This document shows, piece after piece, positions 1 through 64,000 of a stretch of DNA of 64,000 nucleotides. The translations under genes and the position numbers were made by a program. The notes under the pieces are model-generated. The model was not told the origin of the DNA. It saw only the letters and a program-made list of their open reading frames with translations, and ran no database searches. Location: contig NW_027590802.1 of assembly GCF_964213995.1 (NCBI RefSeq), positions 1-64,000 on the forward strand. Reading direction: 5' to 3'. Source of the DNA: Mustelus asterias (Eukaryota). Each line of letters begins with the position of its first letter. Within the stretch, counting starts at the first letter, position 1.

Positions 1-3000
1 GGGTGGGGGGAGTGCGGGTGGGGGGTGTGCGGGGTGGGGGGGGGAGTGCGGGTGGGGCGGGAGTGCGGGTGCGGGGGAGTGCGGGTGGGGGGAGTGCGGG
101 TGGGGGGAGTGCGGGTGGGGGGGGAGTGCGGGTGGGGGGGAGTGCGGGTGGGGGGGAGTGCGGGTGGGGGGGAGTGCGGGTGGGAGGGTGGGGGGGGGAG
201 TGTGGGTGGGAGGGGAGTGCGGGTGGGGGGGAGTGCGGGTGGGGGGGAGTGCGGGTGGGAGGGTGGGGGGGGGAGTGTGGGTGGGAGGGGAGTGCGGGTG
301 CGATGGTGGGGGGAGTGCGGGTGGGGGGGAGTGCGGGTGAGATGGTGGGGGGGGAGTGCGGGTGGGGGGGGGAGTGTGGGTGGGGGGGAGTGCGGGTGGG
401 GGGGGAGTGCGGGTGGGATGGTGGGGGGGGGTGTGTGGGTGGGAGGGGAGTGCGGGTGCGATGGTGGGGGGGAGTTGCGGGTGGGGGGGAGTGCGGGTGA
501 GATGGTGGGGGGGGAGTGCGGGTGGGGGAGTGCGGGTGGGGGGGAGTGCGGGTGGGGGGGGGAGTGCGGGTGGGGGGGAGTGCGGGTGGGGGGGGAGTGC
601 GGGTGGGGGGAGTGCGGGTGGGGGGAGTGCGGGTGGGGGGGAGTGCGGGTGGGGGGGTGCGGGTGGGGGGGTGGGGGGGCAGTGCGGGTGGGGGTGTGCG
701 GGTGGGGGGGGAGTGCGGTATGAGAGGGGGGGAGTGCGGGTGGCGTGGGAGTGCGGGTATGAGAGGGGGGGAGTGCGGGTGCGAGGGTGCGGGGGGAGTG
801 CGGGTGGGGGGGGAGTGCGGGTGCGAGGGTGGGGGGGGAGAGCGGGTGGGGGGGAGTGCGGGTGCGAGGGTGGGGGGGGAGTGTGGGTGGGGGGGAGTGC
901 AGGTGCGAGGGTGGAGGGGGAGTGTGGGTGGGGGGGGAGTGCGGGTGGGATGGTGGAGGGGGAGTGCGGGTGGGGGGGAGTGTGGGTGGGGGGTTGGGGG
1001 GGGGGAGTGTGGGTGGGGGGGGCAATGCGGGTGAGATGGTGGAGGGGGAGTGCGGGTGGGGGGGAGTGTGGGTGGGATGGTGGAGGGGGAGTGCGGGTGG
1101 GGAGGAGTGCGGGTGGGGGAAGTGCGGGTGGGGGGAGTGTGGGTGGGGGGTTGGGGGGAGTGTGGGTGGGGATGGTGGGGGGGGAGCGTTGGTGGGGGGG
1201 AGTGCGGGTGGGGGGGAGTGCGGGTGGGGGGGAATGCGGATGGGGGGGGGAGTGCGGGTGGGATGGTGGGGGGGGGGAAGTGTTGGTGGGAGTGAGTGCG
1301 GGTGGGGGGGGAATGCGGGTGGGGGGAGTGCGGGTGGGGGGGAGTGCGGGTGGGGGGGAGTGCGGTTGGGGGGTTGGGGGGGAGTGCGGGTGGGGGGAGT
1401 GCGGGTGGGGGGGAGTGCGGTTGGGGGGTTGGGGGGAGTGCGGGTGGGGGGGTGGGGGGGGAGTGCGGGTGGGCGGGAGTGCGGGTGGGGGGGGAGTGCG
1501 GGTGGGGGTGGTGCGGGTGGGGGGGGAGTGCGGGTGGGGGTGGTGCGGGTGGGGGGGGAGTGCGGGTGGGGGTGGTGCGGGTGGGGGGGGCGTGCGGGTG
1601 CGAGGGTGGAGGGGGAGTGCGGGTGGGGGGGGAGTGCGGGTGCGAGGGTGGGGTGTGAGTGCGGGTGGGGGGGGAGTGCGGGTGGGGGTGGTGCGGGTGG
1701 GGGGGAGTGCGGGTGGGGGTGGTGCGGGAGGGGGGGGAGTGCGGGTGGGGGTGGTGCGGGTGGGGGGGGGAGTGCGGGTGGGGGTGGTGCGGGTGGGGGG
1801 GGCGTGCGGGTGCGAGGGTGGGGGGGGAGTGCGGGTGGGGGGGGAGTGCGGGTGCGAGGGTGGGGGGTGAGTGCGGGTGGGGGGGGAGTGCGGGTGCGAG
1901 GGCGGGGGGGGAGTGCGGGTGCGAGGGTGGGGGGGGAGTGCGGGTGGGGGGGAGTGCAGGTGCGAGGGTGGAGGGGGAGTGTGGGTGGGGGGGGAGTGCG
2001 GGTGGGATGGTGGAGGGGGAGTGCGGGTGGGGGGGAGTGTGGGTGGGGGGTTGGGGGGGGAGTGTGGGTGGGGGGGGAATGCGGGTGAGATGGTGGAGGG
2101 GGGAGTGCGGGTGGGGGGGGAGTGTGGGTGGGATGGTGGAGGGGGAGTGCGGGTGGGGGGAGTGCGGGTGGGGGGGAGTGCGGGTGGGGGGGAGTGTGGG
2201 TGGGGGGTTGGGGGGGAGTGTGGGTGGGATGGGTGGGGGGGGGAGTGTTGGTGGGGGGGAGTGCGGGTGGGGGGGAGTGCTGGTGGGGGGGAATGCGGAT
2301 GGGGGGGGAGTGCGGGTGGGATGGTGGGGGGGGAAGTGTTGGTGGGGGGGAGTGCGGGTGGGGGGGGAATGCGGGTGGGGGGGAGTGCGGGTGGGGGGGA
2401 GTGCGGGTGGGGGGGAGTGCGGTTGGGGGGTTGGGGGGAGAGCGGGTGGGGGGTGGGGGGGGAGTGCGGGTGGGGTGGTGCGGGTGGGGGGGGAGTGCGG
2501 GTGGGGGTGGTGCGGGTGGGGGGGGAGTGCGGGTGGGGGTGGTGCGGGTGGGGGGGAGTGCGGGTGGGGGTTGTGCGGGTGGGGGGGGAGTGCGGGTGGG
2601 GGTGGTGCGGGTGGGGGGGGGCGTGCGGGTGCGAGGGTGGGGGGGGAGTGCGGGTGGGGGGGGAGTGCGGGTGCGAGGGTGGGGGGTGAGTGCGGGTGGG
2701 GGGAGTGCGGGTGCGAGGGTGGGGGGGGAGTGCGGGTGCGAGGGGAGTGCGGGTGGGGGGGGAGTGCGGGTGCGAGGGTGGGGGGGGAGTGCGGGTGGGG
2801 GGGGAGGGCGGGTGGGGGGGAGTGCGGGTACGAGGGTGAGGGGAGTGCGGGTGCGAGGGTGGGGTGGGAGTGCGGGTGGGGGGGGAGGGCGGGTGGGGGG
2901 CCGTGCGGGTACGAGGGTGAGGGGGAGTGCGGGTGGGGGGGGAGGGCGGGTGGGGGGGGGAGGGCGGGTGGGGGGAAGTGCGGGTGCGAGGGTGGAGGGG

Positions 3001-6000
3001 GGAGTGCGGGTGGGGGGGGAATGCGGGTGGGGGTGGAGTGCGGGTGGGGGGGGGAGTGCGGGTGGGGGGGAGTGCGGGTGGGGGGGAGTGCGGGTGGGGG
3101 GGAGTGCGGGTGGGGGGGGGAGTGCAGGTGCGAGGGTGGGGGGGAGTGCGGGTGGGGGGGAGTGCGGGTGGGGGGGAGTGCGGTTGGGGGGGGAGTGCGG
3201 GTGGGGGGGGAGTGCGGGTGGGGGGGAGTGCGGGTGGGGGGGGAGTGCGAGTGGGGGGGGAGTGCGGGTGGGGGGGAGTGCGGGTGGGGGGGAGTGAAGG
3301 TGGGGGCAGTGCGGGTGGGGGGGAGTGCGGGTGGGGGGGAGTGCGGGTGGGGGTGATGCGGGTGGGGGGGAGTGCGGGTGGGGGTGGTGCGGGTGGGGGG
3401 GAGTGCGGGTGGGGGGGAGTGCGGGTTGGGGGGGGAGTGCGAATGGGGGGGGAGTGCGGGTGGGGGGGAGTGCGTTTGGGGGGGAGTGCGGGTGGGGGGG
3501 GTGCGGTTGGGGGGGTATGACGGGTGGGGGGAGTGCGGGTGCGAGGGTGGGGTGGGGACTGTGGGTGGGGGGGAGTGCGGGTGGGGGGGAGTGCGGGTGG
3601 GGGGGTGTGGGTGGGGGGGTGCGGGTGGGGGGGTAGTACGGGTGGGGGGGAGTGCGGGTGCGAGGGTGGGGGGGAGTGTGGGTGGGGTGGGAGTGAGGGT
3701 GGGGGGGAGTGCGGGCGGGGGGAGTGGGGGTGGGGGGGAGTGCGGGTGGGGGGAGTGCGGGTGGGGGAGGGAGTGCGGGTGGGGGGGGAGTGCGAGTGGG
3801 GGGAGTGCGGGTGGGGGGGAGTGCGGGTGGGGGGAGTGCGGGTGGGGGGTAGTGCGGGTGGAGGGGAGTGTGGGTGGGGGGGGAGTGCGGGTGGGGGGGG
3901 AGTGTGGGTGGGGGGGAGTGCGGGTGGGAGGGGAGTGCGGGTGGGGGGGAGTGCGGGTGGGGGGGGAGTGTGGGTGGAGGGGAGTGCAGGTGGGGGGGGA
4001 GTGCGGGTGGGGGGGGGGTGGGGGGGAGTGCGGGTGGGGGGGAGTGCGGGTGGGGGGGAGTGCGGGTGGAGGGGAGCGCGGGTGGGGGGGAGTGCGGGTG
4101 GGGTGGTGCGGGTGGGGGGGTGGGGCTGTGGGGGTGCAGTGCGGGTGGGGGTGTGCGGGTGGGGGGAGTGCGGTATGAGAGGGGAGAGCGCGGGTGGGGT
4201 GGGAGTGCGGGTATGAGAGGGGGGATTGCGGGTGCGAGGGTGGGGGGGGAGAGCGGGTGGGGGGGAGAGCGGGTGCGAGGGTGGGGGGGATTGCGGGTGG
4301 GGGAAGTGCGGGTGCGAGGGTGGGGGGGGAGTGTGGGTGGGAGGGGAGTGCGGGTGGGATGGTGGAGGGGGGAGTGCGGGTGGGGGGGAGTGCGGGTGAG
4401 ATGGTGGGGGGGGGATTGCGGGTGGGGGGGAGTGCGGGTGGGGGGGGAGTGCGGGTGGGGGGGAGTGCGGGTCGGGGGGAGTACGGGTGGGGGGGAGTGC
4501 GGGTGGGAGGGAGTGCGGGTGGGGGGAGTGCGTGTCGTGGGGAGTGCGGGTGGGGGGGAAGTGCGGGTGGGGGGGTGCGGGTGGGGGGTGGGGGGTGGGG
4601 GGACAGTGCGGGTGGGGGGATGCGGGTGGGGGGGAGTGCGGTATGAGAGGGTGGGAGTGCGGGTGGGGTGGGAGTGCGGGTGCGAGGGTGGGGGGGAGAG
4701 CGGGTGGGGGGGAGTGCGGGTGCGAGGGTGGGGGGGAGAGCGGGTGGGGGGGAGTGCGGGTACGAGGGTGGGGGGGAGTGCGGGTGGGGGGGAGTGCGAG
4801 GGTGGGGTGGTAGTGCGGGTGGGGGGGAGTGCGGGTGCGAGGGCTGGGGGGGAGTGTGGGTGGGAGGGGAGTGCGGGTGGGATGGTGGGGGGGAGTGTGG
4901 GTGGGGGGAGTGCGGGCGGGGGGAGTGCGGGTGGGGTGTTGGGGGGGGAGTGTGGGTGGGATGGTGGGGGGGGAGTGTGGGTGGGGGGGAATGCGGGTGG
5001 GATGGTGGGGGGGGGAGTGTTGGTGGGGGGAGTGCGGGTGGGGGGGGGAGTGCGGGTGGGGGGGAATGCGGGTGGGGGGGAGTGCGGGTGGGGGGGAATG
5101 CGGGTGGGGGCGAGTGCGGGTGGGATGGTGGGGGGGGAAGTGTTGGTGGGGGTGAGTGCGGGTGGGGGGGGAATGCGGGTGGGGGGGAGTGCGGGTGGGG
5201 GGGAGTGCGGGTGGGGGGGAGAGCGGGTGGGGGGTTGGGGGGGGAGTGAGTGTGGGGGGGGTGGGGGGGGGAGTGCGGGTGGGGGGGAGTGCGAGTGGGG
5301 GGGAGTGCGGGTGGGGGGGAGTGCGGGTGGGGGGGAGTGAAGGTGGGGGCAGTGCGGGTGGGGGGGAGTGCGGGTGGGGGGAGTGCGGGTGGGGGTGATG
5401 CGGGTGGGGGGGGAGTGCGGGTGGGGGTGGTGCGGGTGGGGGGGGAGTGCGGGTGGGGGGGAGTGCGGGTGGGGGGGGGAGTGCGAATGGGGGGGGAGTG
5501 CGGGTGGGGGGGGAGTGCGTTTGGGGGGGAGTGCGGGTGGGGGGGGTTGCGGTTGGGGGGGTATGACGGGTGGGGGGGAGTGCGGGTGCGAGGGTGGGGT
5601 GGGGACTGTGGGTGGGGGGGGAGTGCGGGTGGGGGGGGAGTGCGGGTGGGGGGGGTGTGGGTGGGGGGGTGCGGGTGGGGGGGTAGTACGGGTGGGGGGG
5701 AGTGCGGGTGCGAGGGTGGGGGGGGAGTGTGGGTGGGTTGGGAGTGAGGGTGGGGGGGGAGTGCGGGCGGGGGGGAGTGGGGGTGGGGGGGAGTGCGGGT
5801 GGGGGGGAGTGCGGGTGGGGGAGGGAGTGCGGGTGGGGGGGGAGTGCGAGTGGGGGGAGTGCGGGTGGGGGGGAGTGCGGGTGGGGGGGAGTGCGGGTGG
5901 GGGGTAGTGCGGGTGGAGGGGAGTGTGGGTGGGGGGGGAGTGCGGGTGGGGGGGGAGTGTGGGTGGGGGGGAGTGCGGGTGGGGGGGGAGTGCGGGTGGG

Positions 6001-9000
6001 GGGGAGTGCGGGTGGGGGGGGAGTGTGGGTGGGGGGGAGTGCGGGTGGGGGGGGAGTGCGGTTGGGGGGGGTGGGGGGGAGTGCGGGTGGGGGGGAGTGC
6101 GGGTGGGGGGGGAGTGCGGGTGGAGGGGAGTGCGGGTGGGGGGGGAGTGCGGGTGGGGTGGTGCGGGTGGGGGGTGGGGCGGTGGGGGTGCAGTGCGGGT
6201 GGGGGTGTGCGGGTGGGGGGGAGTGCGGTATGAGAGGGGAGAGCGCGGGTGGGGTGGGAGTGCGGGTATGAGAGGGGGGATTGCGGGTGCGAGGGTGGGG
6301 GGGGGAGAGCGGGTGGGGGGGAGAGCGGGTGCGAGGGTGGGGGGGGATTGCGGGTGGGGGGGAGTGCGGTTGCGAGGGTGGGGGGGGAGTGTGGGTGGGA
6401 GGGGAGTGCGGGTGGGATGGTGGGGGGGGAGTGCGGGTGGGGGGGAGTGCGGGTGAGATGGTGGGGGGGGGATTGCGGGTGGGGGGGAGTGCGGGTGGGG
6501 GGGAGTGCGGGTGGGGGAGAGTGCGGGTCGGGGGGAGTACGGGTGGGGGGGGAGTGCGGGTGGGGGGGAGTGCGGGTGGGGGGGAGTGCGTGTCGTGGGG
6601 AGTGCGGGTGGGGGGGAAGTGCGGGTGGGGGGTGCGGGTGGGGGGGTGGGGGGTGGGGGGACAGTGCGGGTGGGGGGATGCGGGTGGGGGGGAGTGCGGT
6701 ATGAGAGGGTGGGAGTGCGGGTGGGGTGGGAGTGCGGGTGCGAGGGTGGGGGGGAGAGCGGGTGGGGGGGAGTGCGGGTGCGAGGGTGGGGGGGAGAGCG
6801 GGTGGGGGGGAGTGCGGGTGCGAGGGTGGGGGGGGAGTGCGGGTGGGGGGGAGTGCGAGGGTGGGGTGGTAGTGCGGGTGGGGGGGAGTGCGGGTGCGAG
6901 GGCTGGGGGGGAGTGTGGGTGGGAGGGGAGTGCGGGTGGGATGGTGGGGGGGGAGTGTGGGTGGGGGGAGTGCGGGCGGGGGGGAGTGCGGGTGGGGTGT
7001 TGGGGGGGGAGTGTGGGTGGGATGGTGGGGGGGGAGTGTGGGTGGGGGGGGAATGCGGGTGGGATGGTGGGGGGGGGAGTGTTGGTGGGGGGGAGTGCGG
7101 GTGGGGGGGGGAGTGCGGGTGGGGGGGAATGCGGGTGGGGGGGAGTGCGGGTGGGGGGGAATGCGGGTGGGGGCGAGTGCGGGTGGGATGGTGGGGGGGG
7201 AAGTGTTGGTGGGGGTGAGTGCGGGTGGGGGGGGAATGCGGGTGGGGGGGGAGTGCGGGTGGGGGGGAGTGCGGGTGGGGGGAGAGCGGGTGGGGAGTTG
7301 GGGGGGGAGTGAGTGTGGGGGGGTGGGGGGGGAGTGCGGGTGGGGGGGAGTGCAGGTGGGGGGGGAGTGCGGGTGGGGGGGGAGAGTGCGGGTGGGGGGG
7401 AGTGCGGGTGGGGGGAGTGCGGGTGCGAGGGTGGGGGGGTGTGGGTGGGGGGGGAGTGCGGGTGGGGGGTGCGGGTGGGGGGGGAGTGCGGGTGGGGGTG
7501 GTGCGGGTGGGGGGGAGTGCGGGTGCGAGGGTGGGGGGGGACTGCGTGTGGGGGGGTGGGGGGGGGAGTGCGGGTGGGGGGGAGTGCGGGTGGGGGGGGA
7601 GTGCGTGTGGGGGGGGAGAGTGCGGGTGGGGGGGAGTGCGGGTGGGGGGGAGTGCGGGTGCGAGGGTGGGGGGGTGTGGGTGGGGGGGAGTGCGGGTGGG
7701 GGGGTGCGGGTGGGGGGGGAGTGCGGGTGGGGGTGGTGCGGGTGGGGGGGAGTGCGGGTGCGAGGGTGGGGGGCGTGTGGGTGGGGGGGGAGTGCGGGTG
7801 GGGGGAGTGCGGGTGCGAGGGTGGGGGGGCGGGTGGGGGGGAGTGCGGGTGGGGGGGAGTGAAGGTGGGGGCAGTGCGGGTGGGGGGGAGTGCGGGTGGG
7901 GGGGAGTGCGGGTGGGGGTGATGCGGGTGGGGGGGGAGTGCGGGTGGGGGTGGTGCGGGTGGGGGGGAGTGCGGGTGGGGGGGAGTGCGGGTGGGGGGGG
8001 GAGTGCGAATGGGGGGGGAGTGCGGGTGGGGGGGAGTGCGTTTGGGGGGGAGTGCGGGTGGGGGGGGTGCGGTTGGGGGGGTATGACGGGTGGGGGGGAG
8101 TGCGGGTGCGAGGGTGGGGTGGGGACTGTGGGTGGGGGGGGAGTGCGGGTGGGGGGGGAGTGCGGGTGGGGGGGTGTGGGTGGGGGGGGTGCGGGTGGGG
8201 GGGTAGTACGGGGTGGGGGGGAGTGCGGGTGCGAGGGTGGGGGGGGGAGTGTGGGTGGGTTGGGAGTGAGGGTGGGGGGGGAGTGCGGGCGGGGGGGAGT
8301 GGGGGTGGGGGGGAGTGCGGGTGGGGGGGAGTGCGGTGGGGGAGGGAGTGCGGGTGGGGGGGAGTGCGAGTGGGGGGAGTGCGGGTGGGGGGGAGTGCGG
8401 GTGGGGGGGGAGTGCGGGTGGGGGGTAGTGCGGGTGGAGGGGAGTGTGGGTGGGGGGGGAGTGCGGGTGGGGGGGGGAGTGTGGGTGGGGGGGAGTGCGG
8501 GTGGGGGGGAGTGCGGGTGGGGGGGAGTGCGGGTGGGGGGGGAGTGTGGGTGGGGGGAGTGCGGGTGGGGGGGGAGTGCGGTTGGGGGGGTGGGGGGGAG
8601 TGCGGGTGGGGGGGAGTGCGGGTGGGGGGGGAGTGCGGGTGGAGGGGAGTGCGGGTGGGGGGGGAGTGCGGGTGGGGTGGTGCGGGTGGGGGGTGGGGCG
8701 GTGGGGGTGCAGTGCGGGTGGGGGTGTGCGGGTGGGGGGGAGTGCGGTATGAGAGGGGAGAGCGCGGGTGGGGTGGGAGTGCGGGTATGAGAGGGGGGAT
8801 TGCGGGTGCGAGGGTGGGGGGGGGAGAGCGGGTGGGGGGGAGAGCGGGTGCGAGGGTGGGGGGGATTGCGGGTGGGGGGGAGTGCGGTTGCGAGGGTGGG
8901 GGGGGAGTGTGGGTGGGAGGGGAGTGCGGGTGGGATGGTGGGGGGGGAGTGCGGGTGGGGGGGAGTGCGGGTGAGATGGTGGGGGGGGGGATTGCGGGTG

Positions 9001-11095
9001 GGGGGGAGTGCGGGTGGGGGGGAGTGCGGGTGGGGGAGAGTGCGGGTCGGGGGAGTACGGGTGGGGGGGGAGTGCGGGTGGGGGGGAGTGCGGGTGGGGG
9101 GGGAGTGCGTGTCGTGGGGAGTGCGGGTGGGGGGGAAGTGCGGGTGGGGGGGTGCGGGTGGGGGGGTGGGGGGTGGGGGGACAGTGCGGGTGGGGGGATG
9201 CGGGTGGGGGGGGAGTGCGGTATGAGAGGGTGGGAGTGCGGGTGGGGTGGGAGTGCGGGTGCGAGGGTGGGGGGGGAGAGCGGGTGGGGGGGAGTGCGGG
9301 TGCGAGGGTGGGGGGGGGAGAGCGGGTGGGGGGGAGTGCGGGTGCGAGGGTGGGGGGGGAGTGCGGGTGGGGGGAGTGCGAGGGTGGGGTGGTAGTGCGG
9401 GTGGGGGGAGTGCGGGTGCGAGGGCTGGGGGGGAGTGTGGGTGGGAGGGGAGTGCGGGTGGGATGGTGGGGGGGGAGTGTGGGTGGGGGGAGTGCGGGCG
9501 GGGGGAGTGCGGGTGGGGTGTTGGGGGGGGAGTGTGGGTGGGATGGTGGGGGGGGAGTGTGGGTGGGGGGGGAATGCGGGTGGGATGGTGGGGGGGGGAG
9601 TGTTGGTGGGGGGGAGTGCGGGTGGGGGGGAGTGCGGGTGGGGGGGAATGCGGGTGGGGGGGAGTGCGGGTGGGGGGAATGCGGGTGGGGGCGAGTGCGG
9701 GTGGGATGGTGGGGGGGGAAGTGTTGGTGGGGGTGAGTGCGGGTGGGGGGGGAATGCGGGTGGGGGGGGAGGGGGGGAGTGCGGGTGGGGGGGAGTGCGG
9801 GTGGGGGGGAGAGCGGGTGGGGAGTTGGGGGGGGAGTGAGTGTGGGGGGGTGGGGGGGGAGTGCGGGTGGGGGGAGTGCAGGTGGGGGGGGAGTGCGGGT
9901 GGGGGGGAGAGTGCGGGTGGGGGGGAGTGCGGGTGGGGGAGTGCGGGTGCGAGGGTGGGGGGGTGTGGGTGGGGGGGGAGTGCGGGTGGGGGGGTGCCGG
10001 TGGGGGGGGAGTGCGGGTGGGGGTGGTGCGGGTGGGGGGGAGTGCGGGTGCGAGGGTGGGGGGGGACTGCGTGTGGGGGGGTGGGGGGGGAGTGCGGGTG
10101 GGGGGAGTGCGGGTGGGGGGGGAGTGCGTGTGGGGGGGAGAGTGCGGGTGGGGGGAGTGCGGGTGGGGGGAGTGCGGGTGCGAGGGTGGGGGGGTGTGGG
10201 TGGGGGGGAGTGCGGGTGGGGGGGTGCGGGTGGGGGGGGAGTGCGGGTGGGGGTGGTGCGGGTGGGGGGGAGTGCGGGTGCGAGGGTGGGGGGCGTGTGG
10301 GTGGGGGGGGAGTGCGGGTGGGGGGGTGCGGGTGCGAGGGTGGGGGGGCGGGTGGGGGGGAGTGCGGGTGGGGGTGGGCGGGTGGGGGGGGACTGCGGGT
10401 GGGGGGGAGTGCGGGTGGGGGGTAGAGCCGGTGGGGGGGGAGTGCGGGTGGGGGGGGAGTGCGGGTGCGAGGGTGGGGGGGAGTGCGTGTGGGGGGGAGT
10501 GCGGGTGCGAGGGTGGGGGGTAGTGCGGGTGCGAGGGTGGGGGGGGAGTGCGGGTGGGGGGGGAGGGCAGGTGGGGGGGAGTGCGGGTGCGAGGGTGGGG
10601 GGGGAGTGCGGGTGGGGGGGAATGCGGGTGGGGGGGGAGTGCGGGTGGGGGGAGTGCGGGTGGGGGGTGGGGGGGTGGGGGGGCAGTGCGGGTGGGGGAT
10701 GCGGGTGGGGGGGGAGTGCGGTATGAGAGGGGGGAGTGCGGGTGGGGTGGGAGTGCGGGTATGAGAGGGGGGAGTGCGGGTGCGAGGGTGGGGGGGGAGT
10801 GCGGGTGGGGGGGAGTGCGGGTGCGAGGGTGGGGGGGGAGAGCGGGTGGGGGGGAGTGCGGGTACGAGGGTGGGGGGGGGAATGCGGGTGGGGGGGGAGG
10901 TGCGGGTAGGGGCGGAGTGCGGGTGGGGGGGAGTGCGGGTGGGGGGGGAGTGCGGGCGGGGGGGAGTGCGGGTGGGTGGGGAGTGCGGGTGGGGGGGGTT
11001 GCGGGTGGGGGGGTGTGCGGGTGGGGGGGATTGCGGGTGGGGGGGGAGTGCGGGTGGGGGGGAGTGCGGGTGGGAGAGGGGGGCAGCGTGCGCGC
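1..11095. repeat. G-rich satellite array, ~16-17 bp monomer GAGTGCGGGTGGGGGG(G), with higher-order structure
   Basis: The monomer is visibly repeated hundreds of times. Variant markers recur: gagtgaagg at ~3292, 5335, 7857 and cgtgtcgtgg at ~4531, 6589, 9108. Confidence 0.97.
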
Positions 11096-19966: not shown

Positions 19967-20868
19967 TCAGGTTTTAATGAGTCGACGAATTGCAGTAAGG
20001 GGAGCTTTCAGCAGATTTTTCAGCTGCTGCCTGAAGTGAGTCTGTGTCACAGCATAAATGACAGTGTTTGTGCAGCAACTCCGGAGTTGCAGCATGAAGC
20101 CCAGATCCATAACAAAGTAATCTAACCACACTAACCGGAAGCCCAAATTATACATCTGACCCCATATTGAAAAGACCATTAATGTTGACCATAAGAGGAT
20201 GAAATTGGCTGAGATAACAAACAGTAAAATGATGGATTTCCTTCGTCTCTCCATCTCTAGGTCTCTGGGAGTCTCCCCACTGCTGTGAGCCCGGAGTCTC
20301 CTGCGGGCTCTGCTGCTCACTAAAATGTGTCTGACGGTGAAAGCATTGAGCAGCAGAATCAGGACGAATGGGACAGTCGGGGTTAGAATGTGGTGGAGGA
20401 TCTCGATTGTTACCCAGACCGGAGAGAACATAACATCCATTGTGAAGCCACAAAACGAGGGGTTGTTCATCAGCCAATATCCACTTAATGACTTAAAATA
20501 CCAGAAAATGTTCTTTAAACAGCTCAGCATCGTCACTGTTCCCAGAACCACAGCCGCCGATTTCTCACTACAATATTTACTCTTCAGCTTGGAGCAGCAA
20601 ATGGCCACAAATCGATCAAAGGTGAAAGTGACGGTGAACCAGACAGAACAGTCAGTGGCTGCATACACCAAGACGGCGTGGATATTACACACGGGGAGCG
20701 AGTACAGGAAAGAAAACTGTTCCCAATAAACAATGGGAATGTGTCTCAATATCAGGTCGAGGATAACGACCAGCAGATCCCCCGCTGACATGGCCACCAG
20801 GTAACGAGTGACACATTTGGACAGACCACAGTTTCTGCTCGTCAGTGTCACAATTGTGATTATGTTCA
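19967..20868 (-). CDS. GPR139/GPR142-like orphan class A GPCR, gene 1, exon 2
   Basis: Open frame carrying TM1(end)-TM7: VNIITIV, YLVAM..DLL, TFDRFVAIC, PFVLILLLN, RRKSIILLF, SCCTN..IY. Acceptor ttcctgacag on the minus strand ends at 20869; phase 1. Confidence 0.93.
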
Positions 20869-20989
20869 CTGTCAGGAAGGAAAATAAAGAATGAAATTAG
20901 ATATGATTCAGGGGAAGAAATTACAATTCAGACTGAGGACGGGTGAAAATAGAAATAATGTACACACACACAGAATAATTAAATCTATG

Positions 20990-24384: not shown

Positions 24385-25270
24385 CAATTACATGCAGAGA
24401 GGCAGCGAGAACCCCCTCCCTACCCCACTGTGCATGCAGAGAGGCAGCGAGATTTTCCTCCCTAACCCACTGTGCATTCACAGAGGCAGTGAGATCCCCC
24501 TCCCTATCCCACTGTGCATGCAGACGCAGCGACACCCCCTTCCTACCCCACTGTGCAGCAGAGAGGCAGCGAGGCTCCCCTCCATAACCCACTGTGCATT
24601 CACAGAGGCAGCGAGAACCCCCGTCCTACCCCACTGTGTATGCAGAGAGGCAGCCAGACCCTCCCCCTACCCCACTTTGCATGCAGAGAGGCAGCGAGAC
24701 CCCCTCCCTAACCCACTGTGCATGCAGAGAGGCAGCGTGGAACCCTCCCTGCCCCACTGTGCACGCACAGAGGCAGCGAGACCCCCTCCCTACCCCACTG
24801 TGCATGCAGAGAGGCAGCGAGACCCCCTCCCTAACCCACTGTGCATGCAGAGAGGCAGCGATGCACCCTCCCTGCCCCACCGTGCATGCAGAGAGGCAGC
24901 GAGACCCCCTCACTACCCCATTGTGCATGCAGAGAGGCAGCGATGCACCCTCCCTGCCCCACCGTGCATGCAGAGAGGCAGCGAGACCCCCTTGCTACAC
25001 CACTGTGCATGCAGAGAGGCAGCGAGACCCCCTCCCTACACCACTGTGCATGCAGAGAGGCAGAGGGACACCCTCCCTACGCAACTGTGCATGTAGAGAG
25101 GAAGCACGCCCACCCTCCCTACCTCACTGTGCATGCAGAGAGGCTAAGGGTCACCCTCCCTAACCCACTGTGCATGCGGAGAGGCAGGGAGACCCCATCC
25201 CTGCCTCACCGATCGTGTGCAGAGTGGCTGGAGGACCCGCTACACTCACCAATCTCGTGCAGAGCAGCAG
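24385..25270. repeat. Minisatellite, ~43 bp unit (accccactgtgcatgcagagaggcagcgagaccccctccct), about 20 copies
   Basis: Direct tandem repetition, decaying towards the right end. Confidence 0.93.
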
Positions 25271-26450: not shown

Positions 26451-26945
26451 ATTTTATGAAATATGTTCTCTCTCTGTGGGATCCTGCTGTGCATATATGA
26501 CCAATAAAATTGATTCTGTGGCGTGGTGATTTGGTGGGTGAACTGGTGTTATATGCAGAGGGTAAAAATGATTCTGTCTCAATCTTTTACTCACGATGGA
26601 ATAACGTTTGAGGTCACATGTCTATGGAAAGTCACAGCACACAGAAGACATCCTAGCCCATAGGCCCTCAGACAATTGTCAGTGGCTGAAAGAATTAATA
26701 ACCGGAGACTGAGATTCAACAGAAACAAGAGCAGCAAGCCGAGTACAGTAAATGTCAAGGAAATCAATACAGTTAAACAGCCTTTCTAGAATTAGGAGCT
26801 GGACACAGGGGACGGGAGTTTACAGCCTCAATCTTCCCAAAGCTGCAAAATCCCACCCGTGTTCAACAGACCTTCCCATGCTCCGCCCCTCGCCTGCTCC
26901 GATTCCCGTGGCGGTCGGGCCGGTACAATTCCAGCCAGGACTTAC

Positions 26946-27189
26946 CCGGAACACCAACAATCGCCAGGAGGGGATAGTAAATGCACTGAATCGCCTTCAG
27001 TAGATATTCAATCCGATGAGCTGATGTTACCCACGAATAATCTGCAGTAAACCAAGAAATCCAATAGAATAAACTCCTGTCCTTGGTTGGAACATTCCAA
27101 TCCATTGTTCCCAGATTCTGATCCATTGTTGGAACATTCCAATCCATTGTTCCCAGATTCTGATCCATTGTTGAAACATTCCAATCCAT
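26946..27189 (-). CDS. GPR139-like gene 1, exon 1 (spliced product about 381 aa)
   Basis: Reads MDWNVST...IYYPLLAIVGVP-G|gtaag. The phase-1 donor joins exon 2 to give GVPVNIITIV. Intron 20869-26945. Confidence 0.88.
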
Positions 27190-27420
27190 TGTTCCCCGGA
27201 TTCTGATCTCTCCTCTCCCTCCCTCTCTCTCCACAGCCGCTGATCTCTGTTAGTGTCGGAGTTGTCGCTCCCGCTGCCTCAATGGGACAACACATTGAAC
27301 GGAACCCCTTATTAATAGAAGAGGGGAATCCCTCCAGACACACTAATCGGATCCATGGAGACTCACATCAATTACAGTCACTAAACAAACAGCTTCACTT
27401 AACCCCCTTCAATCCAACAC

Positions 27421-34746: not shown

Positions 34747-35239
34747 ATGCTTTTGGTCATACTGGCGGCGCTCTCGCACAGTCAGCACTGGATGATGTTC
34801 ATCAAACCGGATAAATATATTGATGGCAACTTGATTAACAATCTAAAATATCCATGCGATGCGCAGAATGGAGATTCCACAAACTATCGCAGATACAAAC
34901 ACATTTACGTTAACACTTGATATTTCATTCTTCTGCCTTTCCAGACGGGCTGTGCGTAGATCCAGTAACTCAGTCACCGGTGACAATAACCGCATCGGAA
35001 AGGGGCTTTGGCGCAGTTACATTGTAATTAGAGAGAAAAGGATATGCACAGCATGCAATGGTATCAGCAGAAACCGGCACAGCCACCGACATGGATTATT
35101 TCCAAAATATTAACAATGAAGGAAGATAAAGTTTCAGGACGATATCTGGCGATAGCTAACAAGTCTAATCAGAACGGTTACCTTAATATCAGCCACCTTC
35201 AGTGTGGGGGACGGGGCTGTCAATTACTGTGCAATTAGG
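34747..35239 (+). pseudogene. TCR alpha/delta-like V gene pseudogene (V1): leader 34747-34780, V exon 34945-35239
   Basis: Leader MLLVILAALSH|gt and acceptor tttccag. V reads DPVTQSP...LHCN*...MQWYQQKPAQPPTWII...LNISHLQ/VGDGAVNYCAIR, with two frameshifts and one stop. Confidence 0.85.
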
Positions 35240-35278
35240 CACAACGTTAGATTACAGTTAAAACCCCGTACAAAGACC
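35240..35278 (+). promoter_or_regulatory. Recombination signal sequence, 23-bp spacer
   Basis: CACAACG + 23 nt + ACAAAGACC directly after YCAIR. Confidence 0.85.
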
Positions 35279-37129: not shown

Positions 37130-37168
37130 GGTTTTTGTACAGTGACTGCCGTCTTTCCTCTCAGTGTG
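37130..37168 (-). promoter_or_regulatory. Recombination signal sequence, 23-bp spacer
   Basis: Minus strand CACACTG + 23 nt + perfect nonamer ACAAAAACC. Confidence 0.93.
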
Positions 37169-37587
37169 GGCTCTATCGCACAGTAATACAAAGCGGTATC
37201 CGTGCTCTCCGTGTTTTCAATCATCAACTGGCTCGATTTGTCCGCAGTGGAAAGTTGCAATTCGAATCGGTCCTTTCTCTCTTTGCCATCCGAGAATCTG
37301 CGTATTATCCACTGCAGACCCTGACCGGGCTTTTGTCTGTACCGATACATTCTGTAAATGCTGGACATATCATAGCTGCAGTTTAGCCGCACCGAATCCC
37401 CGCTCTGGGCTGTTCTGGCTATGGGAGTTTGTGAAACTTGGTCCGAACGACACCGATCTATAAAAAAAACATTTAGTCAATTCGGCACTGGAGCAAAATG
37501 CACTTAAATAGCAGTCTCGACACGTTATAGAGTAAATTTCTTGCACTTACAAATTAGTAGAACCATAATAAAATGGAACAGACTCAT
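37169..37587 (-). CDS. TCR alpha/delta-like V gene segment (V2), in frame but Trp41->Arg: leader 37587-37551, V exon 37457-37169
   Basis: MSLFHFIMVLLI|gtaag...tag|. V reads RCRSDQVSQTP...VRLNCSYDMSSIYRMYRYRQKPGQGLQWI...DRF...DTALYYCAIEP; both conserved Cys are present. Confidence 0.9.
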
Positions 37588-54209: not shown

Positions 54210-54248
54210 AGTTTTCCTACGGCTGTGGGAATGTTTTCTATCACTGTG
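54210..54248 (-). promoter_or_regulatory. Recombination signal sequence, 23-bp spacer
   Basis: Perfect heptamer CACAGTG + 23 nt + degenerate nonamer AGGAAAACT. Confidence 0.8.
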
Positions 54249-54978
54249 AGACTGAAAGCGCAGTAATACGCAGCAGAGTCAGTCCACTACAGACCCAATG
54301 TATTTAAACTAGTCACTTTTTTCCCACTCTGGAGTTGCTGCAAAATCTGCTTTATCCTCAGTATCCCAGGAGCTTTTACTCACGATAAATTCCGTTTGTA
54401 GATCTGGGAGCTGTCGATACCAATCTAAATAAAGTTTAGATTTATTTATTTGTCAGAAGTAATGTTTGCATTAACACTGAAATGAAGTTACTGTGAAATC
54501 CCCTCGGTCGCCACACTCCGGCGGCTGTTCGGGTCAATGCACCTAACCAGGACGTCTTTCAGAATGTGGGAGGAAACCACAGCACGCAGATGAAACCCAC
54601 GCAGACACAGGGAGAACGTGCAAACTCCACACAGACAGTGACCCAAGCCAGGAATCAAACCCGCGTCCCTGGTCCTGTGAAGCACTGTGCTACCCTGCCG
54701 CCAGTGCCAGCAATAATAGTTGCTGGCTGTGGCATCAAAGGTGCAGGTCATTGTCACCTCTTCTCCTTGTGCCTTAACATGTGAGGAGCGTCGCTGAGTC
54801 ACAGAATCTTAGTTAGATCTGGAAAGAGAAGAAATATAATCACATCTGAACAGTTCAGGCTATAGGGTGCTAAGATTTGAACCGTGCTTGATAAATGCGA
54901 GAAAAGATTAAATGTATTTAATCTCCAAGCACCTGCTCGGAATGATCCGCACACAACCCAGATGCTGAGCAGCCGCAT
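54249..54978 (-). pseudogene. TCR delta/alpha-like V pseudogene (V3): leader 54978-54933, V exon 54818-54249 split by a SINE
   Basis: Leader MRLLSIWVVCGSFRA|gt. V reads DSVTQRRSS...EEVTMTCTFDATASNYY [SINE] WYRQLPDLQTEFIVSKSSWDTEDKADFA/..KKVTSLNTLGL*WTDSAAYYCAFS. Confidence 0.88.
54425..54701 (-). mobile_element. HE1/V-SINE inserted into the V3 exon
   Basis: Reverse complement of ggcggcagggtagcacagtg...ggtcactgtctgtgtggagtttgcacgttctccc. Confidence 0.9.
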
Positions 54979-58534: not shown

Positions 58535-60375
58535 AAATATCGAAATGATTTGGAGGAAAATTTAACTGGTTTGATTCGTAAGTTTGCAGGCGACACAAAG
58601 ATTGGTGGAATTGTGGATAGGGATGATGACTGTCAGAGGATGCATCAGGATATAGATTTGTTGGAGACCTGGGCAGAGAGATGGTAGATGGAGTTCATAG
58701 AACATAGAACAGTACAGCACAGAACAGGCCCTTCGGCCCACGATGTTGTGCCGAGCTTTATCTGAATCCAAGATCAAGCTATCCCACTCCCTATCATCCT
58801 GGTGTGCTCCATGTGCCTATCCAATAACCGCTTAAATGTTCCTAAAGTGTCTGACTCCACTATCACTGCAGGCAGTCCATTCCACACTCCAACCACTCTC
58901 TGCGTAAAGAACCTACCTCTGATATCCTTCCTGTATCTCCCACCACGAACCCTATAGTTATGCCCCCTTGTAATAGCTCCATCCACCCGAGGAAATAGAC
59001 TTTGAACGTTCACTCTATCTATCCCATTCATCATTTTAGAAACCTCTATTAAGTCTCCCCTCAGCCTCCTCCGCTCCAGAGAGAACAGCCCTAGCTCCCG
59101 CAACCTTTCCTCATAAGACCTACCCTCCAAACCAGGCAGCATTCTGGTAAATCTCCTCTGCACTCTTTCCAGCGCTTCCACATCCTTCTTATAGTGAGGT
59201 GACCAGAACTGCCCACAATATTCCAAATGTGGTCTCACCAAGGTCCTGCACAGTTGCAGCATAGCCCCATGGCTCTTAAACTCCAAGCCCCTGTTAATAA
59301 AAGCTAACACACTGTAGGCCTTCTTCACAGCTCTATCCACTTGAGTGGCAACCTTTAGAGATCTGTGGATATGAACTCCAAGACCTCTCTTTTCCTCCAC
59401 AGTCTTCGGAACCCTACCTTTGACCCTGTAATCCACATTTAAATTAGTCCTACCAAAATGAATCACCTCACATTTATCAGGGTTAAACTCCGGAGAAATG
59501 TGAGGTAATGCAGAAAGTTCAATCCGGAGAAATGTGAGGTAATGCAGAAAGTTCAATCCGGAGAAATGTGAGGTAATGCATTTTGGAAGGTCTGATAAAG
59601 TTGGGAAATATACAGTAAATGGCTGATCCCTTAAGAGTATTGATAGGCAGAGTAATCTGGGTATACAGCTACGCAGGTCACTGAAAGTGGCAACGCAGGT
59701 GGAGAAGGTAGTCAAGATGGCATATGGCATGCTTGCTTTCATCAGCCAGGGCATTCAGTTGAAAAATTGGCAAGTCATATTGCAGTCTTATTGAATCTTA
59801 GTTAGGCCGCACTTGGGAAATAATGTTCAATTCTGTTCGCCACACTACCAGAAGGATGTGGAGTCATTGGAGAGGGTACAGAAAAGACTTTCGAAAATGT
59901 TGCCTGGAAGGAAGGGCATTAGCTATGAGGAGAGGTTGGAGAAACTTGGTTTGTTCTCACTGCAACGACGGAGGCTGAGGGGCGACCTGATAGTCGTCTA
60001 AAGGATTATGAGGGTCATGGACAGAGTAGATAACCAGAAGCTTCTTCCCAGGGCAGAAGAGTCAATTACTAGGAGGCATAGGTTTACGGTGTGAAGGGCA
60101 AATATTAAAGGACATTTACGAGGCAAATTCTCTACACAGAGAGTGGTGGGTGACTGGAACTCGCTGCCAGGTGAGGTAGTGGAAACAGGTGCAACCGTGA
60201 CTTTTAAGTGGCGTCTTGACAAGTACATGAATAGGATGGGAATAGAGGGATAATGTTCCCAGATTGGTCGGGTATTTTGTTCTGTTCAGTCGGGCAGCAT
60301 GGCCGGTGCAGGCTTTTAGGGCCGCAGTGCCTGCTCTTGTCCTGTAATTTTCTTTGATCTTTGTTATTTGTTCTT
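58535..60375 (+). mobile_element. CR1 3' fragment (58535-58696 and 59489-60375) in the GPCR2 intron, interrupted by an antisense CR1
   Basis: ...W.MEF | NPEKCEVMHFG... is continuous across the insertion; ttctttg-like tail. Confidence 0.88.
58696..59490 (-). mobile_element. Young 5'-truncated CR1
   Basis: Open frame EFNPDKCEVIHFG...FFTQRVVGVWNGLP; catagaa tail. Confidence 0.93.
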
Positions 60376-60521
60376 AAAACGTGAAACCTTCTGGTGTAGA
60401 TCTTCTGTTAAATATGAGGTTTGTGGGCTTCAATTCAAACGATAATGCCCTGACCAGGATCCGAAAAGAAAGGCCTAGTGTTTGGAATCAGATTTTCAAC
60501 ATTTTTAACCCTCCCTTACAG

Positions 60522-61423
60522 CCAATTTGATGGCTATCGTGATCCTATCCAGAGGACGGTGTGGACTGTCCCAGTGTATCACCTACTACCTGGTAGCAAT
60601 CGCGGTGACTGATTTCCTGGTTATGATTTCTGCTGTCATCCTCAACCGGATCGGTGGCATTTACTTTCGATACAGTGTCCTCTCCACCACCCCCGGGTGC
60701 ACGGTCAGCAGCGTCCTGGTATATACCACCCGTGATGGGTCCGTCTGGCTGACTGTAGCCTTCACCATCGACCGTTTTGTGGCCATCTGCTGCCAGAGCC
60801 TGAAGACCAGATACTGCACCGAGAAAACAGCATTGCTGGTTATCGGAATAGTCTGTGCACTGAGCTGTGTCAAAAACATCCCTTTCTTCTTCACCTATCA
60901 GCCCTTGTATATCCTAGACGGGGTGCCTTGGTTCTGTGATATCAAGTCCACCTTCTACACGTTAACCATCTGGCAGGCCTATCTCTGGCTAGACCGCATA
61001 TTAACACCATTGTTTCCATTCTTCCTGATCCTGCTGCTCAACGCTCTGACTGTGAGGCACATCTTAGCAGCCAGCAGGGCCCGCAGGAGACTCCGGGGTT
61101 CCGAGAGTCGGGGAGACATGGAGATGGAAAACCGCAAGCGGTCTATTGTCCTGCTTTTCGCCATCTCCCTCAGCTTCCTCCTCCTGTGGGTCATATATGT
61201 CGGTCATTTCCTCTACGTACAGATTTCGGGTGAGCCATACTTCACCGGCCTGGATTTCAATGATCCGCAGTACATCCTTCAGGAGACGACCAACATGCTG
61301 CAACTACTTAGCTCCTGCACTAACATCTTCATTTACGCAGTGATTCAGACCAGATTCAGGGAAGAGATCAAGAACCTGTTGATGTATCCGTTCGCCACCC
61401 TCAAAGGTTTTCTGAAACGGTGA
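60522..61423 (+). CDS. GPR139/GPR142-like orphan GPCR, gene 2, exon 2 (spliced product about 323 aa)
   Basis: Acceptor cccttacag. Reads ANLMAIVIL, FTIDRFVAIC, PFFLILLLN, RKRSIVLLF, LQLLSSCTNIFIY. AATAAA lies just after the stop. Confidence 0.93.
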
Positions 61424-61609
61424 AAGAATAAAGAAACGTTTGCTTTTCTCAGTTAAAGCCTCATTATACATTACCTGCCACCATTGTCTGTCTTCCATCC
61501 TAATGTCTCAGTACATGCCACTTTATGTCCGTCAGCTGAATAAAAAAGTCAATGTTTGGGAGCGACTTCGAAAACCTAACGACTATAATGCCGGCTAAGA
61601 GTTCTCTGT

Positions 61610-61782
61610 CACCAGAACTGAAGCAGTGCTGCATTGTTGGCGGTTTCTTGTTTGTTGGTCTGATACATAACCCATGCAATGCGTCTGCCATCTGAGTGAA
61701 ATTGCAGTGACCTCAGGGTCATTTTGACAAAGAAGAATGTCAGGAATTTATCCCAGAGCCTTGGGTTAATATTTATGCTTAA
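61610..61782 (+). mobile_element. Old Deu-domain-type SINE fragment
   Basis: gtgctgcattgttggcggt...gtctgcc...aagaag...aatatttat resembles the DeuSINE core. Confidence 0.45.
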
Positions 61783-61829
61783 TTGGCACCCCTGAACCAA
61801 TCCCCTGCCCATCAATCTAACCAGTTGCA

Positions 61830-61938
61830 GAGTAAAGCAAAACAGATATCGTGGCTGGAATTTCGAAATGTGAGAGTTGAAGACACCGTTTCCTATTACG
61901 GTGAAGCTCCGTACTGGTATGATGACTGGTCTGGGACT
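61830..61938 (+). pseudogene. 3' fragment of an Ig-type V domain, NAR-TCR V-like (Cys104->Gly)
   Basis: SKAKQISWLEFRNVRVEDTVSYYGEAPYWYDDWSGT has the FR3 pattern L.I..V.VEDT..YYC and is followed directly by a heptamer. Confidence 0.65.
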
Positions 61939-61977
61939 CACAATGGAAGCAACCTGAACAGATATCTGTGCAAAATT
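61939..61977 (+). promoter_or_regulatory. Candidate RSS, 23-bp spacer
   Basis: CACAATG + 23 nt + TGCAAAATT (weak nonamer). Confidence 0.55.
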
Positions 61978-62759
61978 ACAATATAAATTGTCTGGAAATG
62001 GAGAGTGAAGTGCCGTCTTAATGTTATTATCGTTTTAATCAGCTTTAATTTAATTGTAATTTTCACAATTCAGTTATAATTGCTGGAATATAATGATAAA
62101 TATCTGTTTTTTAACCAGTAATCCGTTTATGTCGTTCATTGGAAGGGAACACCCGCAATCACTGTTACCATAAAGACATTGGTTACAGAGACTCCATTGA
62201 GATTCCCCTAAGATGTTAGCAACCAGTGAACCAACACTGAACTCATGCTGGAATGTTAATACCAGTTACTGAACAATCCACTGAACTAGTGAAAGAATCA
62301 ACTGTCCCTTTAAATCGCCTTGATCAACATTTCAAACAGTGCACCCCACCCGAAACCTGCTCGCCCTCTCCCCCCGCCCCCCACCGCCCCAACCACCCCC
62401 CCCTCCCCCCCCCCCCCCCACTCCCACCCCGCCTAGTCCCTCTCGCTATCTTATAGATCTTTTATCCATGAGGCCTTGAATCCCTTCAACTGTACCATCC
62501 AACAATTCCAGTTAATCTTCTTGCTGCATTCTTCCTAAAGCTTTGTTTCACTGTCCTGTTTCGACGACAAATATTTATCCGCCATACGATTCTGCTCCAG
62601 GATTAAATTATCTCAAACCAATTAAACAACGGGAGCTATTGAAGCATTTGATCGAGTCAAAGCTTTCTTAAGGTGTTGAATATCATCCGAATTCCGATGT
62701 TACAGTCAGATCATATTTGTTCTGACCACGGTCTGAAATGTCTTTTTAAAAATCTTAAA

Positions 62760-62878
62760 AATCCACTGCGGAAACTGGAAGTCTGAAATAAAGACTGAAA
62801 ATGCTGGGCTGTACCAGTCGTACTGACAGCATCTGTGGAGAGAGAAACAGAGTTAATATTTCGAGTCCTGTGGACTGA
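62760..62878 (-). mobile_element. Penelope-like terminal fragment
   Basis: ctggaagtctgaaataaagactgaaaatgctgg...agcatctgtggagagagaaacagagttaatatttcgagtcc. Confidence 0.6.
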
Positions 62879-64000
62879 TGGCTGCAACGGATACAATGAC
62901 CGATTGGCTGAAAAGCCTCTTTCCGTGCTGCAAAATCCTGTGCCTTTTATGAATCTATTTCGGAACTGCCCACCAGTTTATATTATGGAGGCCATTGTCT
63001 CTGTGTACATTAGAATCGATCTTGTCTTTGTTACAATTCTTACAGAACCTCTCTGTTTATATTACCAAAAAAAAACACACTCTTAATACGCTTGACCCTC
63101 TTTCAGTGTCTACTGAACTGGACCCAGTCTTCCTTCATATCAGTGCAGGTGATGTGTCAATAATTGGTGTACTAGGCCTTTTCTTTGTATTATTAAAACT
63201 GATCATGTTAGGTGGATTAGCCATGCTAAATTGCCCCTTACTGTCGAAAGATGTGTAGGTTATATGGATTCGCTATTTTAAATGCGCGTGGTTTAAGGGA
63301 TATGACAAAGACGAGGGCCGAGATGGAATGCAGAAGCGTTGGGCCAGATGGTCTCTTTCTGCACTGTAGAGTTATATGGTTCTATGTCCATGAAATATTT
63401 CATCATTTCCTGCGTCAGATATTTGAGCGCTTTCTTATTTTTCAATAACCCTCAATGGAGAAAATGACCTTTGCTTTAGCAATTTCCATTCAGTTGTCCC
63501 AGTGATAGCCTTCAATCCATTTCTGCCTTCTGTGAGTGTACAAAAACTCCAATCACTCCATGCATTTGAATTAAAGATTATTTAAAAATGTAATTATTTA
63601 TTGATAACCGTTCTGTTGTGCGTTGTTGCTTTTGGAGTGATTTCAGATAGTCTATTTCGTTCCCAGCATCGACTCTCATGTCTTTCGAGCTCAGTTGGAA
63701 AATTGATTTAATCACGTCGTGAATGAGGAGCGGATTACTGACAAATGATTAACTCAACCTCTCACAGAAAGTCCTCACACAAAATTCGAATGCGCAAATG
63801 ATGGCACAAACGATCCTGGGCTGTACTTGACAGGAGATAAAGACTCTCGGAATTCTCAGACTTCTTATTGCTGAGAATGGAAACCTTTGCTTCTCGCCAG
63901 AGAATGTGCAATATTTCTGTTTCTACAAATTTGAACGTTACCTTTCCAAATCACACAGTAATCGCCCGAAATATTTTAGACTGATTGAACTCCCTGCAGA

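What the first reader, a model, noticed from the sequence alone, without database searches (positions are those of the whole stretch)
61830..61977. NAR-TCR-like V remnant with a long, possibly germline-joined CDR3 before its RSS
Seen: FR3 ...WLEFRNVRVEDTVSYY(G)EA is followed by 10 more codons (PYWYDDWSGT) before CACAATG-23-TGCAAAATT, whereas the other three V genes have only 3-4 codons after the Cys. Known: shark NAR-TCR V domains have this style of FR3, and sharks carry germline-joined V-D genes. Inference: this is a fossil of a V-D fusion made by RAG activity in the germ line, and it would place the window in or derived from the TCR delta locus.
Basis: partly seen in the sequence, partly recalled or inferred. 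Interest (0 to 1): 0.7.

Follow-up and report, generated by a model that had tools for sequence, protein, structure and literature searches.

The report
Broken shark antigen-receptor V gene fragment
A short, dead fragment of a shark-type antibody or T-cell-receptor gene whose unusually long end may come from gene segments joined in the germ line, a process already known in sharks.

Summary
The letters are as described. An open frame gives a V-domain framework-3 stretch with Cys104 changed to Gly, then 39 nt from that codon to a heptamer, against 12, 14 and 14 nt in the window's three other V genes. The V identity is likely but weak by any single test. All 60 listed PDB hits are antibody V chains, but the framework alone reaches only E 0.03. 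The RSS is degenerate: the 23-spacer nonamer has 5 of 9 mismatches, and 24- or 12-nt registers fit better. It ranks 9 of 1736 CAC sites, while true RSSs rank 1. No 5' part of the V and no J were found. By eye the framework matches a printed VNAR at 8 of 18 residues and VH at 7 of 18, so NAR-TCR membership is untested. Best reading (0.45): a dead fragment of a germline V-D(-D) join that keeps the D's RSS. Rivals are a natural or slippage-lengthened V end, a decayed VDJ, and a local duplication. Germline-joined VD genes are known in sharks, and a 'gj' NARTCR is already annotated in white shark. Low interest.

The parts
61831..61908 (+). Framework-3 remnant of an antigen-receptor V exon (strands E-F), ending Tyr-Tyr-(Gly for Cys104)-Glu-Ala
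   Evidence: 60 of 60 listed PDB hits are antibody V chains aligned in register; 8 of 18 identities to a printed VNAR, counted by eye
61900..61902 (+). Codon at the conserved second cysteine, reading Gly: inactivating
   Evidence: aligned to Cys
61909..61938 (+). 30-nt extra CDR3-like tail (10 codons, aromatic-rich), candidate D-derived sequence; 61913-61938 is an imperfect 12-nt tandem repeat
   Evidence: permissive TRF: period 12, 80% matches, score 37; 358 of 5000 window segments and 100 of 5000 shuffles score as high
61939..61945 (+). Heptamer, 1 mismatch to the consensus
61958..61966 (+). Possible nonamer in the 12-spacer register (3 mismatches); also part of an exact 10-nt repeat of 61841-61850
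61970..61978 (+). Possible nonamer in the 24-spacer register (4 mismatches); best register against the window's own V RSSs
61603..61615 (+). Only splice-acceptor-like site between 61540 and 61830; 284 nt before the Cys codon and in V-exon phase; possibly the old exon start, possibly chance
   Evidence: the DNA between it and the framework has no V similarity
34945..35278 (+). Context: TCR alpha/delta-like V pseudogene (frameshifts, stop) with 23-RSS at 35240
   Evidence: V-set E 1.4e-6; the longest single-domain matches are TCR alpha chains; light chains also score
37130..37457 (-). Context: open V exon with 23-RSS at 37168 and a consensus nonamer; Trp41 position reads Arg
   Evidence: (V-set E 1.1e-13)
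54210..54818 (-). Context: V pseudogene split by an insertion, with 23-RSS at 54248
60509..61423 (+). Context: rhodopsin-family GPCR reading frame ending 477 nt before the Cys codon
   Evidence: (7tm_1 E 2.4e-22)

Best explanation
It is the dead 3' fragment of a cartilaginous-fish antigen-receptor V gene, probably of the NAR type, whose V had been joined in the germ line to one or two D segments. Inferred mechanism: RAG cut at the V's own RSS and at the 5' RSS of a D in a germ cell, and the coding ends were joined. This removed the V's RSS and left the last D's 3' RSS behind a long, fixed CDR3 start, ready for a single further join to a J. The copy then decayed: Cys104 became Gly, the nonamer and spacer drifted, the 5' two thirds of the exon were lost or became unrecognisable, and no J remains nearby. 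It does nothing today. Shown: the motif, the tail length, the weak RSS and the V-gene context. Inferred: the NAR type, the D origin of the tail, and the role of RAG.
For: Tail of 39 nt against 12-14 nt in 3 of 3 other V genes. In-register V-framework matches, 60 of 60 listed. Arg-Val-Glu-Asp before, and Glu-Ala after, the Cys position are shared with VNAR B23 as printed in PMC9771723. The RSS ranks 9 of 1736 CAC sites with a matrix built from the window's three RSSs; chance about 0.002-0.012. The tail is open in the V frame. It holds two similar cores, as two related D segments would give. Germline VD and VDD joins exist in sharks and are attributed to RAG (PMC2193156; PMC5192425; PMC4279169). 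Table S1 of PMC12227049 lists a white-shark 'NARTCR V(gj)V(gi)V' among TCR alpha/delta V genes in both orientations.
Against: No shark D, NAR-TCR V or unrearranged paralogue could be compared. Protein searches were empty or spurious, and the same collection also missed the near-intact V. The RSS is far weaker than the true ones, which rank 1 in leave-one-out tests; on spacer plus nonamer alone it ranks 83 of 1736. The DNA from the heptamer onward resembles the framework itself: 5-36 of 1000 shuffles and 70-107 of 1000 adjacent-pair controls score as high. The tail's repeat could be slippage. No J and no convincing partner RSS lie in the 2 kb downstream, although IgH segments lie about 400 bp apart in nurse shark (PMC2435157). 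The PDB favours VH over VNAR.
Confidence: 0.45

Rival explanations
1. It is an ordinary V pseudogene with its own 23-type RSS. The long end is either natural for its family or grew by replication slippage of a 12-nt unit; no germline join took place.
For: Period-12 repeat at 61913-61938 ending exactly at the heptamer. The best RSS register is 23-type (24 nt), with a spacer end like the other V RSSs. Removing two 12-nt units leaves 15 nt, close to the 12-14 nt of the other V genes (arithmetic).
Against: The repeat is only modestly unusual: 358 of 5000 window segments match it, and permissive TRF reports 6 arrays in 950 nt. V ends this long are not typical of antigen-receptor V genes (own knowledge).
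Confidence: 0.22
2. It is a fully germline-joined V(D)J whose J was truncated. The last four codons (Trp-Ser-Gly-Thr) are the remains of the J motif, and the heptamer is chance.
For: The tail ends in a Gly-Thr pair at a CDR3-like distance. A NARTCR labelled 'gj' is annotated in white shark. No separate J lies downstream.
Against: The codons after Gly-Thr are not J-like in any frame, and no J regex hit occurs in the window. The heptamer with nonamer-like words is unlikely by chance.
Confidence: 0.13
3. A decayed local tandem duplication of the V's 3' end (period about 112-116 nt) created the downstream sequence. The 'RSS' is then partly a framework copy, and the length of the end means nothing.
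For: Exact 10-nt repeat at spacing 116, plus weaker repeats at 114 and 228. Lag 112 was reached by 0 of 300 shuffles at k=6 in 61820-62130. Local alignment was reached by 5-36 of 1000 shuffles.
Against: The region was chosen after seeing the repeat. In 61600-62200 the signal drops to 29 of 300 (k=6) and 182 of 300 (k=5). Adjacent-pair controls give 70-107 of 1000. The alignment needs many indels and few substitutions, unlike neutral decay.
Confidence: 0.12
4. It is chance resemblance in non-coding DNA behind the GPCR; there is no V gene here.
For: No Pfam hit. Framework-only E 0.03. Score against the near-intact V equals the null maximum. No recognisable 5' part. The single-sequence fold was uninformative.
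Against: A motif, an in-frame heptamer and three true V genes in the window coincide. A long framework regex hit only this site and 0 of 100 Markov resamples (the regex was written after seeing the sequence). 8 of 18 identities to a VNAR.
Confidence: 0.05

Closest known systems
Shark NAR-TCR (NARTCR) V segments in the TCR alpha/delta region, including the white-shark entry LOC121270133 labelled 'NARTCR V(gj)V(gi)V' (PMC12227049 table S1)
   Same: Lies among TCR alpha/delta-like V genes in both orientations; NAR-like framework end; possibly pre-joined.
   Different: Fragment only; Cys lost; no J or supporting V delta seen in the remaining 2 kb; would be a partial join keeping an RSS. Sequence identity to NAR-TCR V was not testable. 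'gj' is not defined in the passages seen and is read here as germline-joined.
Germline-joined VD-J and VDD-J IgH clusters of sharks and skates (PMC2193156, PMC5192425, PMC4279169)
   Same: Proposed origin: RAG-type joining in germ cells that leaves V fused to D with the D's 3' RSS.
   Different: No J or C cluster here; the residues after the Cys position are Glu-Ala as in a VNAR, not as in VH; non-functional.
IgNAR V (VNAR)
   Same: 8 of 18 identities from the strand-E Leu to the residue two after Cys, against VNAR B23 (by eye).
   Different: No chain named as a VNAR among the 60 listed PDB hits; no C domains in the window.
TAILV / Ig-TCRd V (IgH-like V in the TCR delta locus; named in PMC12227049)
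   Same: Best PDB matches are VH/VHH; a 23-type RSS without a local J would suit such a segment.
   Different: Residues after the Cys position are not VH-like; no TAILV sequence was available.

Membership tests
Antigen-receptor V gene segment | Framework-3 motif Asp-x-x-x-Tyr-x-Cys in V-set register | tested here: met
   Cys replaced by Gly; weak significance (framework-only E 0.03)
Antigen-receptor V gene segment | Leader, Cys23 and Trp41 upstream | tested here: not met
   No V similarity in three frames of 61540-61850; one acceptor-like site in the right phase
Antigen-receptor V gene segment | 3' RSS with a 12 or 23 nt spacer | tested here: inconclusive
   Heptamer 1 mismatch; nonamer 3, 5 and 4 mismatches at 12, 23 and 24 nt; rank 9 of 1736 against rank 1 for controls; no RIC model available
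NAR-TCR V | Sequence closest to NAR-TCR V among shark V families | not testable with these tools
   No NAR-TCR sequence obtained; the collection also missed the control V; the primary paper is not held
NAR-TCR V | NAR-type framework (related to IgNAR V) | tested here: inconclusive
   8 of 18 identities to one VNAR against 7 of 18 to a human VH3-type framework (alignments; last two residues recalled); PDB ranks VH first
NAR-TCR V | Own J followed by a supporting V delta downstream | tested here: inconclusive
   No J motif or partner RSS in 61980-64000; the window ends 2 kb downstream, while white-shark NARTCR gene models span about 4-12 kb
Germline-joined VD gene | V end extended beyond the usual length, directly followed by one RSS | tested here: met
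   39 nt against 12, 14 and 14 nt; the comparison V genes belong to other families
Germline-joined VD gene | Extension matches a germline D of the same family, and split paralogues exist | not testable with these tools
   No shark genome collection; no D sequence in the passages read
UrIg / UrIg2 unsplit VJ | Single-exon VJ with an intact J strand; UrIg V about 80% conserved among elasmobranchs | tested here: not met
   6 of 18 framework identities to nurse-shark UrIg by eye, no J strand; a shared 4-residue run in the tail only

The most novel reading that the evidence does not exclude
It is a fossil of a partial germline V-D-D join in a T-cell-receptor (NAR-TCR) cassette rather than in an Ig cluster, still carrying the last D's RSS. 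That would mean germ-cell RAG activity reached the TCR delta locus and stopped before the J step. No description of such a partial join was found in the held library, but the primary NAR-TCR paper was not held and no primary TAILV paper appeared, and a 'gj' NARTCR is already listed in one table.
Probability: 0.25. Interest if true: 0.45.

Novelty: new member of a known kind. Interest (0 to 1): 0.22.

Why it matters
If the join is real, it adds one more case of germ-line V(D)J recombination in cartilaginous fish. If it is also NAR-TCR, it suggests that TCR loci as well as Ig clusters are open to RAG in germ cells, and that partial joins occur there. As a 150-nt dead fragment it has no function and opens no new mechanism. 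Its main use is as a pointer to look for intact, pre-joined paralogues in the same genome.

Tried and rejected
Homologue searches: nothing for the peptide. The one representative hit was a repeat protein matched by summing six weak stretches, and was rejected. The near-intact V at 37168 also found nothing in the collection, so that miss carries no weight; no such control was run. The ESM Atlas gave no result. Single-sequence AlphaFold of the 52-residue frame gave pLDDT 62 and no fold; it was not searched further. The 5' part of the V was not found by Pfam, PDB, frameshift-tolerant alignment or window self-BLAST. No J segment was found. A transposon origin is unsupported: 61540-62350 has no self-BLAST match to the window's repeats, though no repeat library was available. 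Rfam gave nothing over the feature. An UrIg-like unsplit VJ was considered because of a shared four-residue run and rejected on low framework identity and the missing J strand. Other high-scoring RSS-like sites have no V motif upstream. The elephant-shark supplement as held has no NAR-TCR text. Motif searches of papers found no NAR-TCR sequence. Metagenome and viral contig collections stayed unchecked; they are not expected to bear on a shark locus. The bacterial, phage and plasmid collections were not used, for the same reason.

Full report
Setting. The window opens with an 11 kb G-rich satellite. The rest holds reverse-transcriptase-like frames (label from own knowledge), two rhodopsin-family GPCR frames and three V genes with 23-spacer RSSs at 35240 (+), 37168 (-) and 54248 (-). 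Two of them score as V-set above the Pfam cut-off; the third is split and scores weakly. The one at 35240 has its longest single-domain PDB matches to TCR alpha chains. No J motif was found in the window. This fits the shark antigen-receptor complex, where TCR alpha/delta V genes lie scattered in both orientations with NARTCR and IgM units (PMC12227049). The organism was not identified; 'shark' is an inference from this layout.

Observation. The described letters are there. The codon at the second cysteine reads Gly (61900), ten codons follow Glu-Ala, and the heptamer starts at 61939. Cys codon to heptamer is 39 nt, against 12, 14 and 14 nt in the other three V genes. Spacer 24 gives 4 mismatches and reproduces the spacer end of the other RSSs; spacer 12 gives 3.

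Is it a V? With the 39-residue peptide, 549 PDB sequences scored E up to 10, and all 60 listed are antibody V chains. The best single-domain chain has E 0.0014; the two smaller values come from summed repeats. With the framework alone, 178 scored and the best single domain had E 0.03. Pfam gave nothing. Against the window's near-intact V, a frameshift-tolerant alignment scored 35, equal to the maximum of 49 random windows, while the other pseudogene pieces scored 50-102. A long framework regex matched only this site and 0 of 100 Markov resamples, but it was written after seeing the sequence and misses the other three V genes. Upstream DNA (61540-61850) shows no V similarity in any frame. One acceptor-like site lies 284 nt before the Cys codon in the right phase (the near-intact V has 275 nt, read). 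Each test is weak. Together with the heptamer and the context, a V remnant is likely (about 0.95).

Is the RSS real? Window-wide rates put such a site within 60 nt of a given codon at 0.002-0.012. A matrix from the three other RSSs ranks it 9 of 1736 CAC sites, best at spacer 24. Each true RSS ranks 1 when left out. Without the heptamer it ranks 83. It is therefore probably a decayed RSS, of uncertain spacer class. Against this, the DNA from the heptamer onward resembles the framework. There is an exact 10-nt repeat at spacing 116. The alignment is reached by 5-36 of 1000 shuffles and by 70-107 of 1000 adjacent-pair controls. A lag-112 signal was reached by 0 of 300 shuffles in a region chosen afterwards, and by 29 of 300 in a wider region.

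Which family? No NAR-TCR sequence could be obtained. The protein collection returned nothing for the peptide or for the near-intact control V; the representative library gave one spurious hit. Against VNAR B23 as printed in PMC9771723, the framework shares 8 of 18 residues by eye, including Arg-Val-Glu-Asp and the Glu-Ala after the Cys position. Against a VH framework it shares 7 of 18, and one nanobody shares 11 of 22. No chain named as a VNAR is among the 60 listed hits in either search. NAR affinity is a fair lead, and NAR-TCR membership is untested.

Is the tail a D? It is open in the V frame and rich in aromatic residues. Bases 61913-61938 form an imperfect 12-nt repeat, matched by 358 of 5000 window segments and 100 of 5000 shuffles. 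Two related D segments would give this, and so would slippage. No shark D sequence appeared in the passages read. No J and no credible partner RSS lie in the 2 kb downstream.

Mechanism and rivals. The best reading (0.45) is a germ-cell RAG join of V to one or two D segments, leaving the last D's RSS, followed by pseudogene decay. Shown are the motif, the tail length, the weak RSS and the context; inferred are the family, the D origin and RAG. Rivals: a natural or slippage-lengthened V end (0.22), a full VDJ with a truncated J (0.13), a local duplication mimicking an RSS (0.12), and chance (0.05).

What is known. Partly joined VD-J and VD-DJ IgH clusters, VD and VDD joined genes, and their attribution to RAG in germ cells are established. 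Table S1 of PMC12227049 lists a white-shark 'NARTCR V(gj)V(gi)V' and a catshark 'IgM (gj)'; I read 'gj' as germline-joined. Even if right, the finding is a new member of a known kind, and a dead fragment. A partial join in a NAR-TCR cassette was not found described in the held library, which lacks the primary NAR-TCR paper.

Papers, as seen. PMC12227049: parts 1-2 of 8 of the main text, passages, table S1 in full, and part 1 of 2 of the supplement PDF plus a term search of it. PMC2193156: passages and one section. Passages only: PMC3964593 (plus two supplement term searches; the held file seems to lack the immune note, which may describe NAR-TCR), PMC6795676, PMC3457774, PMC5931798, PMC2435157 (its junction figures are images and may hold D sequences), PMC5192425, PMC4279169, PMC2275272, PMC7615758, PMC9771723, PMC11628804. 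Criscitiello et al. 2006: not seen. The RSS consensus and IMGT position names are recalled.

Verdict. Observation confirmed with a corrected RSS register; interpretation partly supported; interest 0.22.

Noticed in passing
window 1-11074: G-rich 16-bp satellite, about 706 copies, GC 78% with strong GC skew; the V genes lie 24-51 kb from it, so the region may be an array edge or a displaced block.
   Followed up: no
window 37130-37457 (-): Open V exon with an upstream leader-like frame and a consensus nonamer, but the conserved Trp41 position reads Arg; the only V here that might still rearrange usefully.
   Followed up: partly
window 54210-54978 (-): V pseudogene interrupted in framework 2 by an insertion of roughly 260 nt that looks like a SINE (label by eye), with frameshifts and a stop.
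   Followed up: partly
window 34747-35278 (+): V pseudogene with leader, two frameshifts and a stop; heptamer has 2 mismatches.
   Followed up: partly
window 60509-61423 (+), 19967-20896 (-), 26863-27249 (-): Two related rhodopsin-family GPCR frames (about 70-80% DNA identity in patches) and a third short frame whose end resembles a GPCR first exon by eye, interleaved with the V genes.
   Followed up: partly
window 24391-25209: 41-bp minisatellite of about 20 copies.
   Followed up: no
window 61835-62089: Weak periodicity of about 112-116 nt between framework 3 and the DNA behind the heptamer.
   Followed up: yes
window 59447-59592: Sub-threshold Rfam miRNA match (33.5 bits against a cut-off of 144) over a 34-bp tandem repeat; probably chance.
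   Followed up: no
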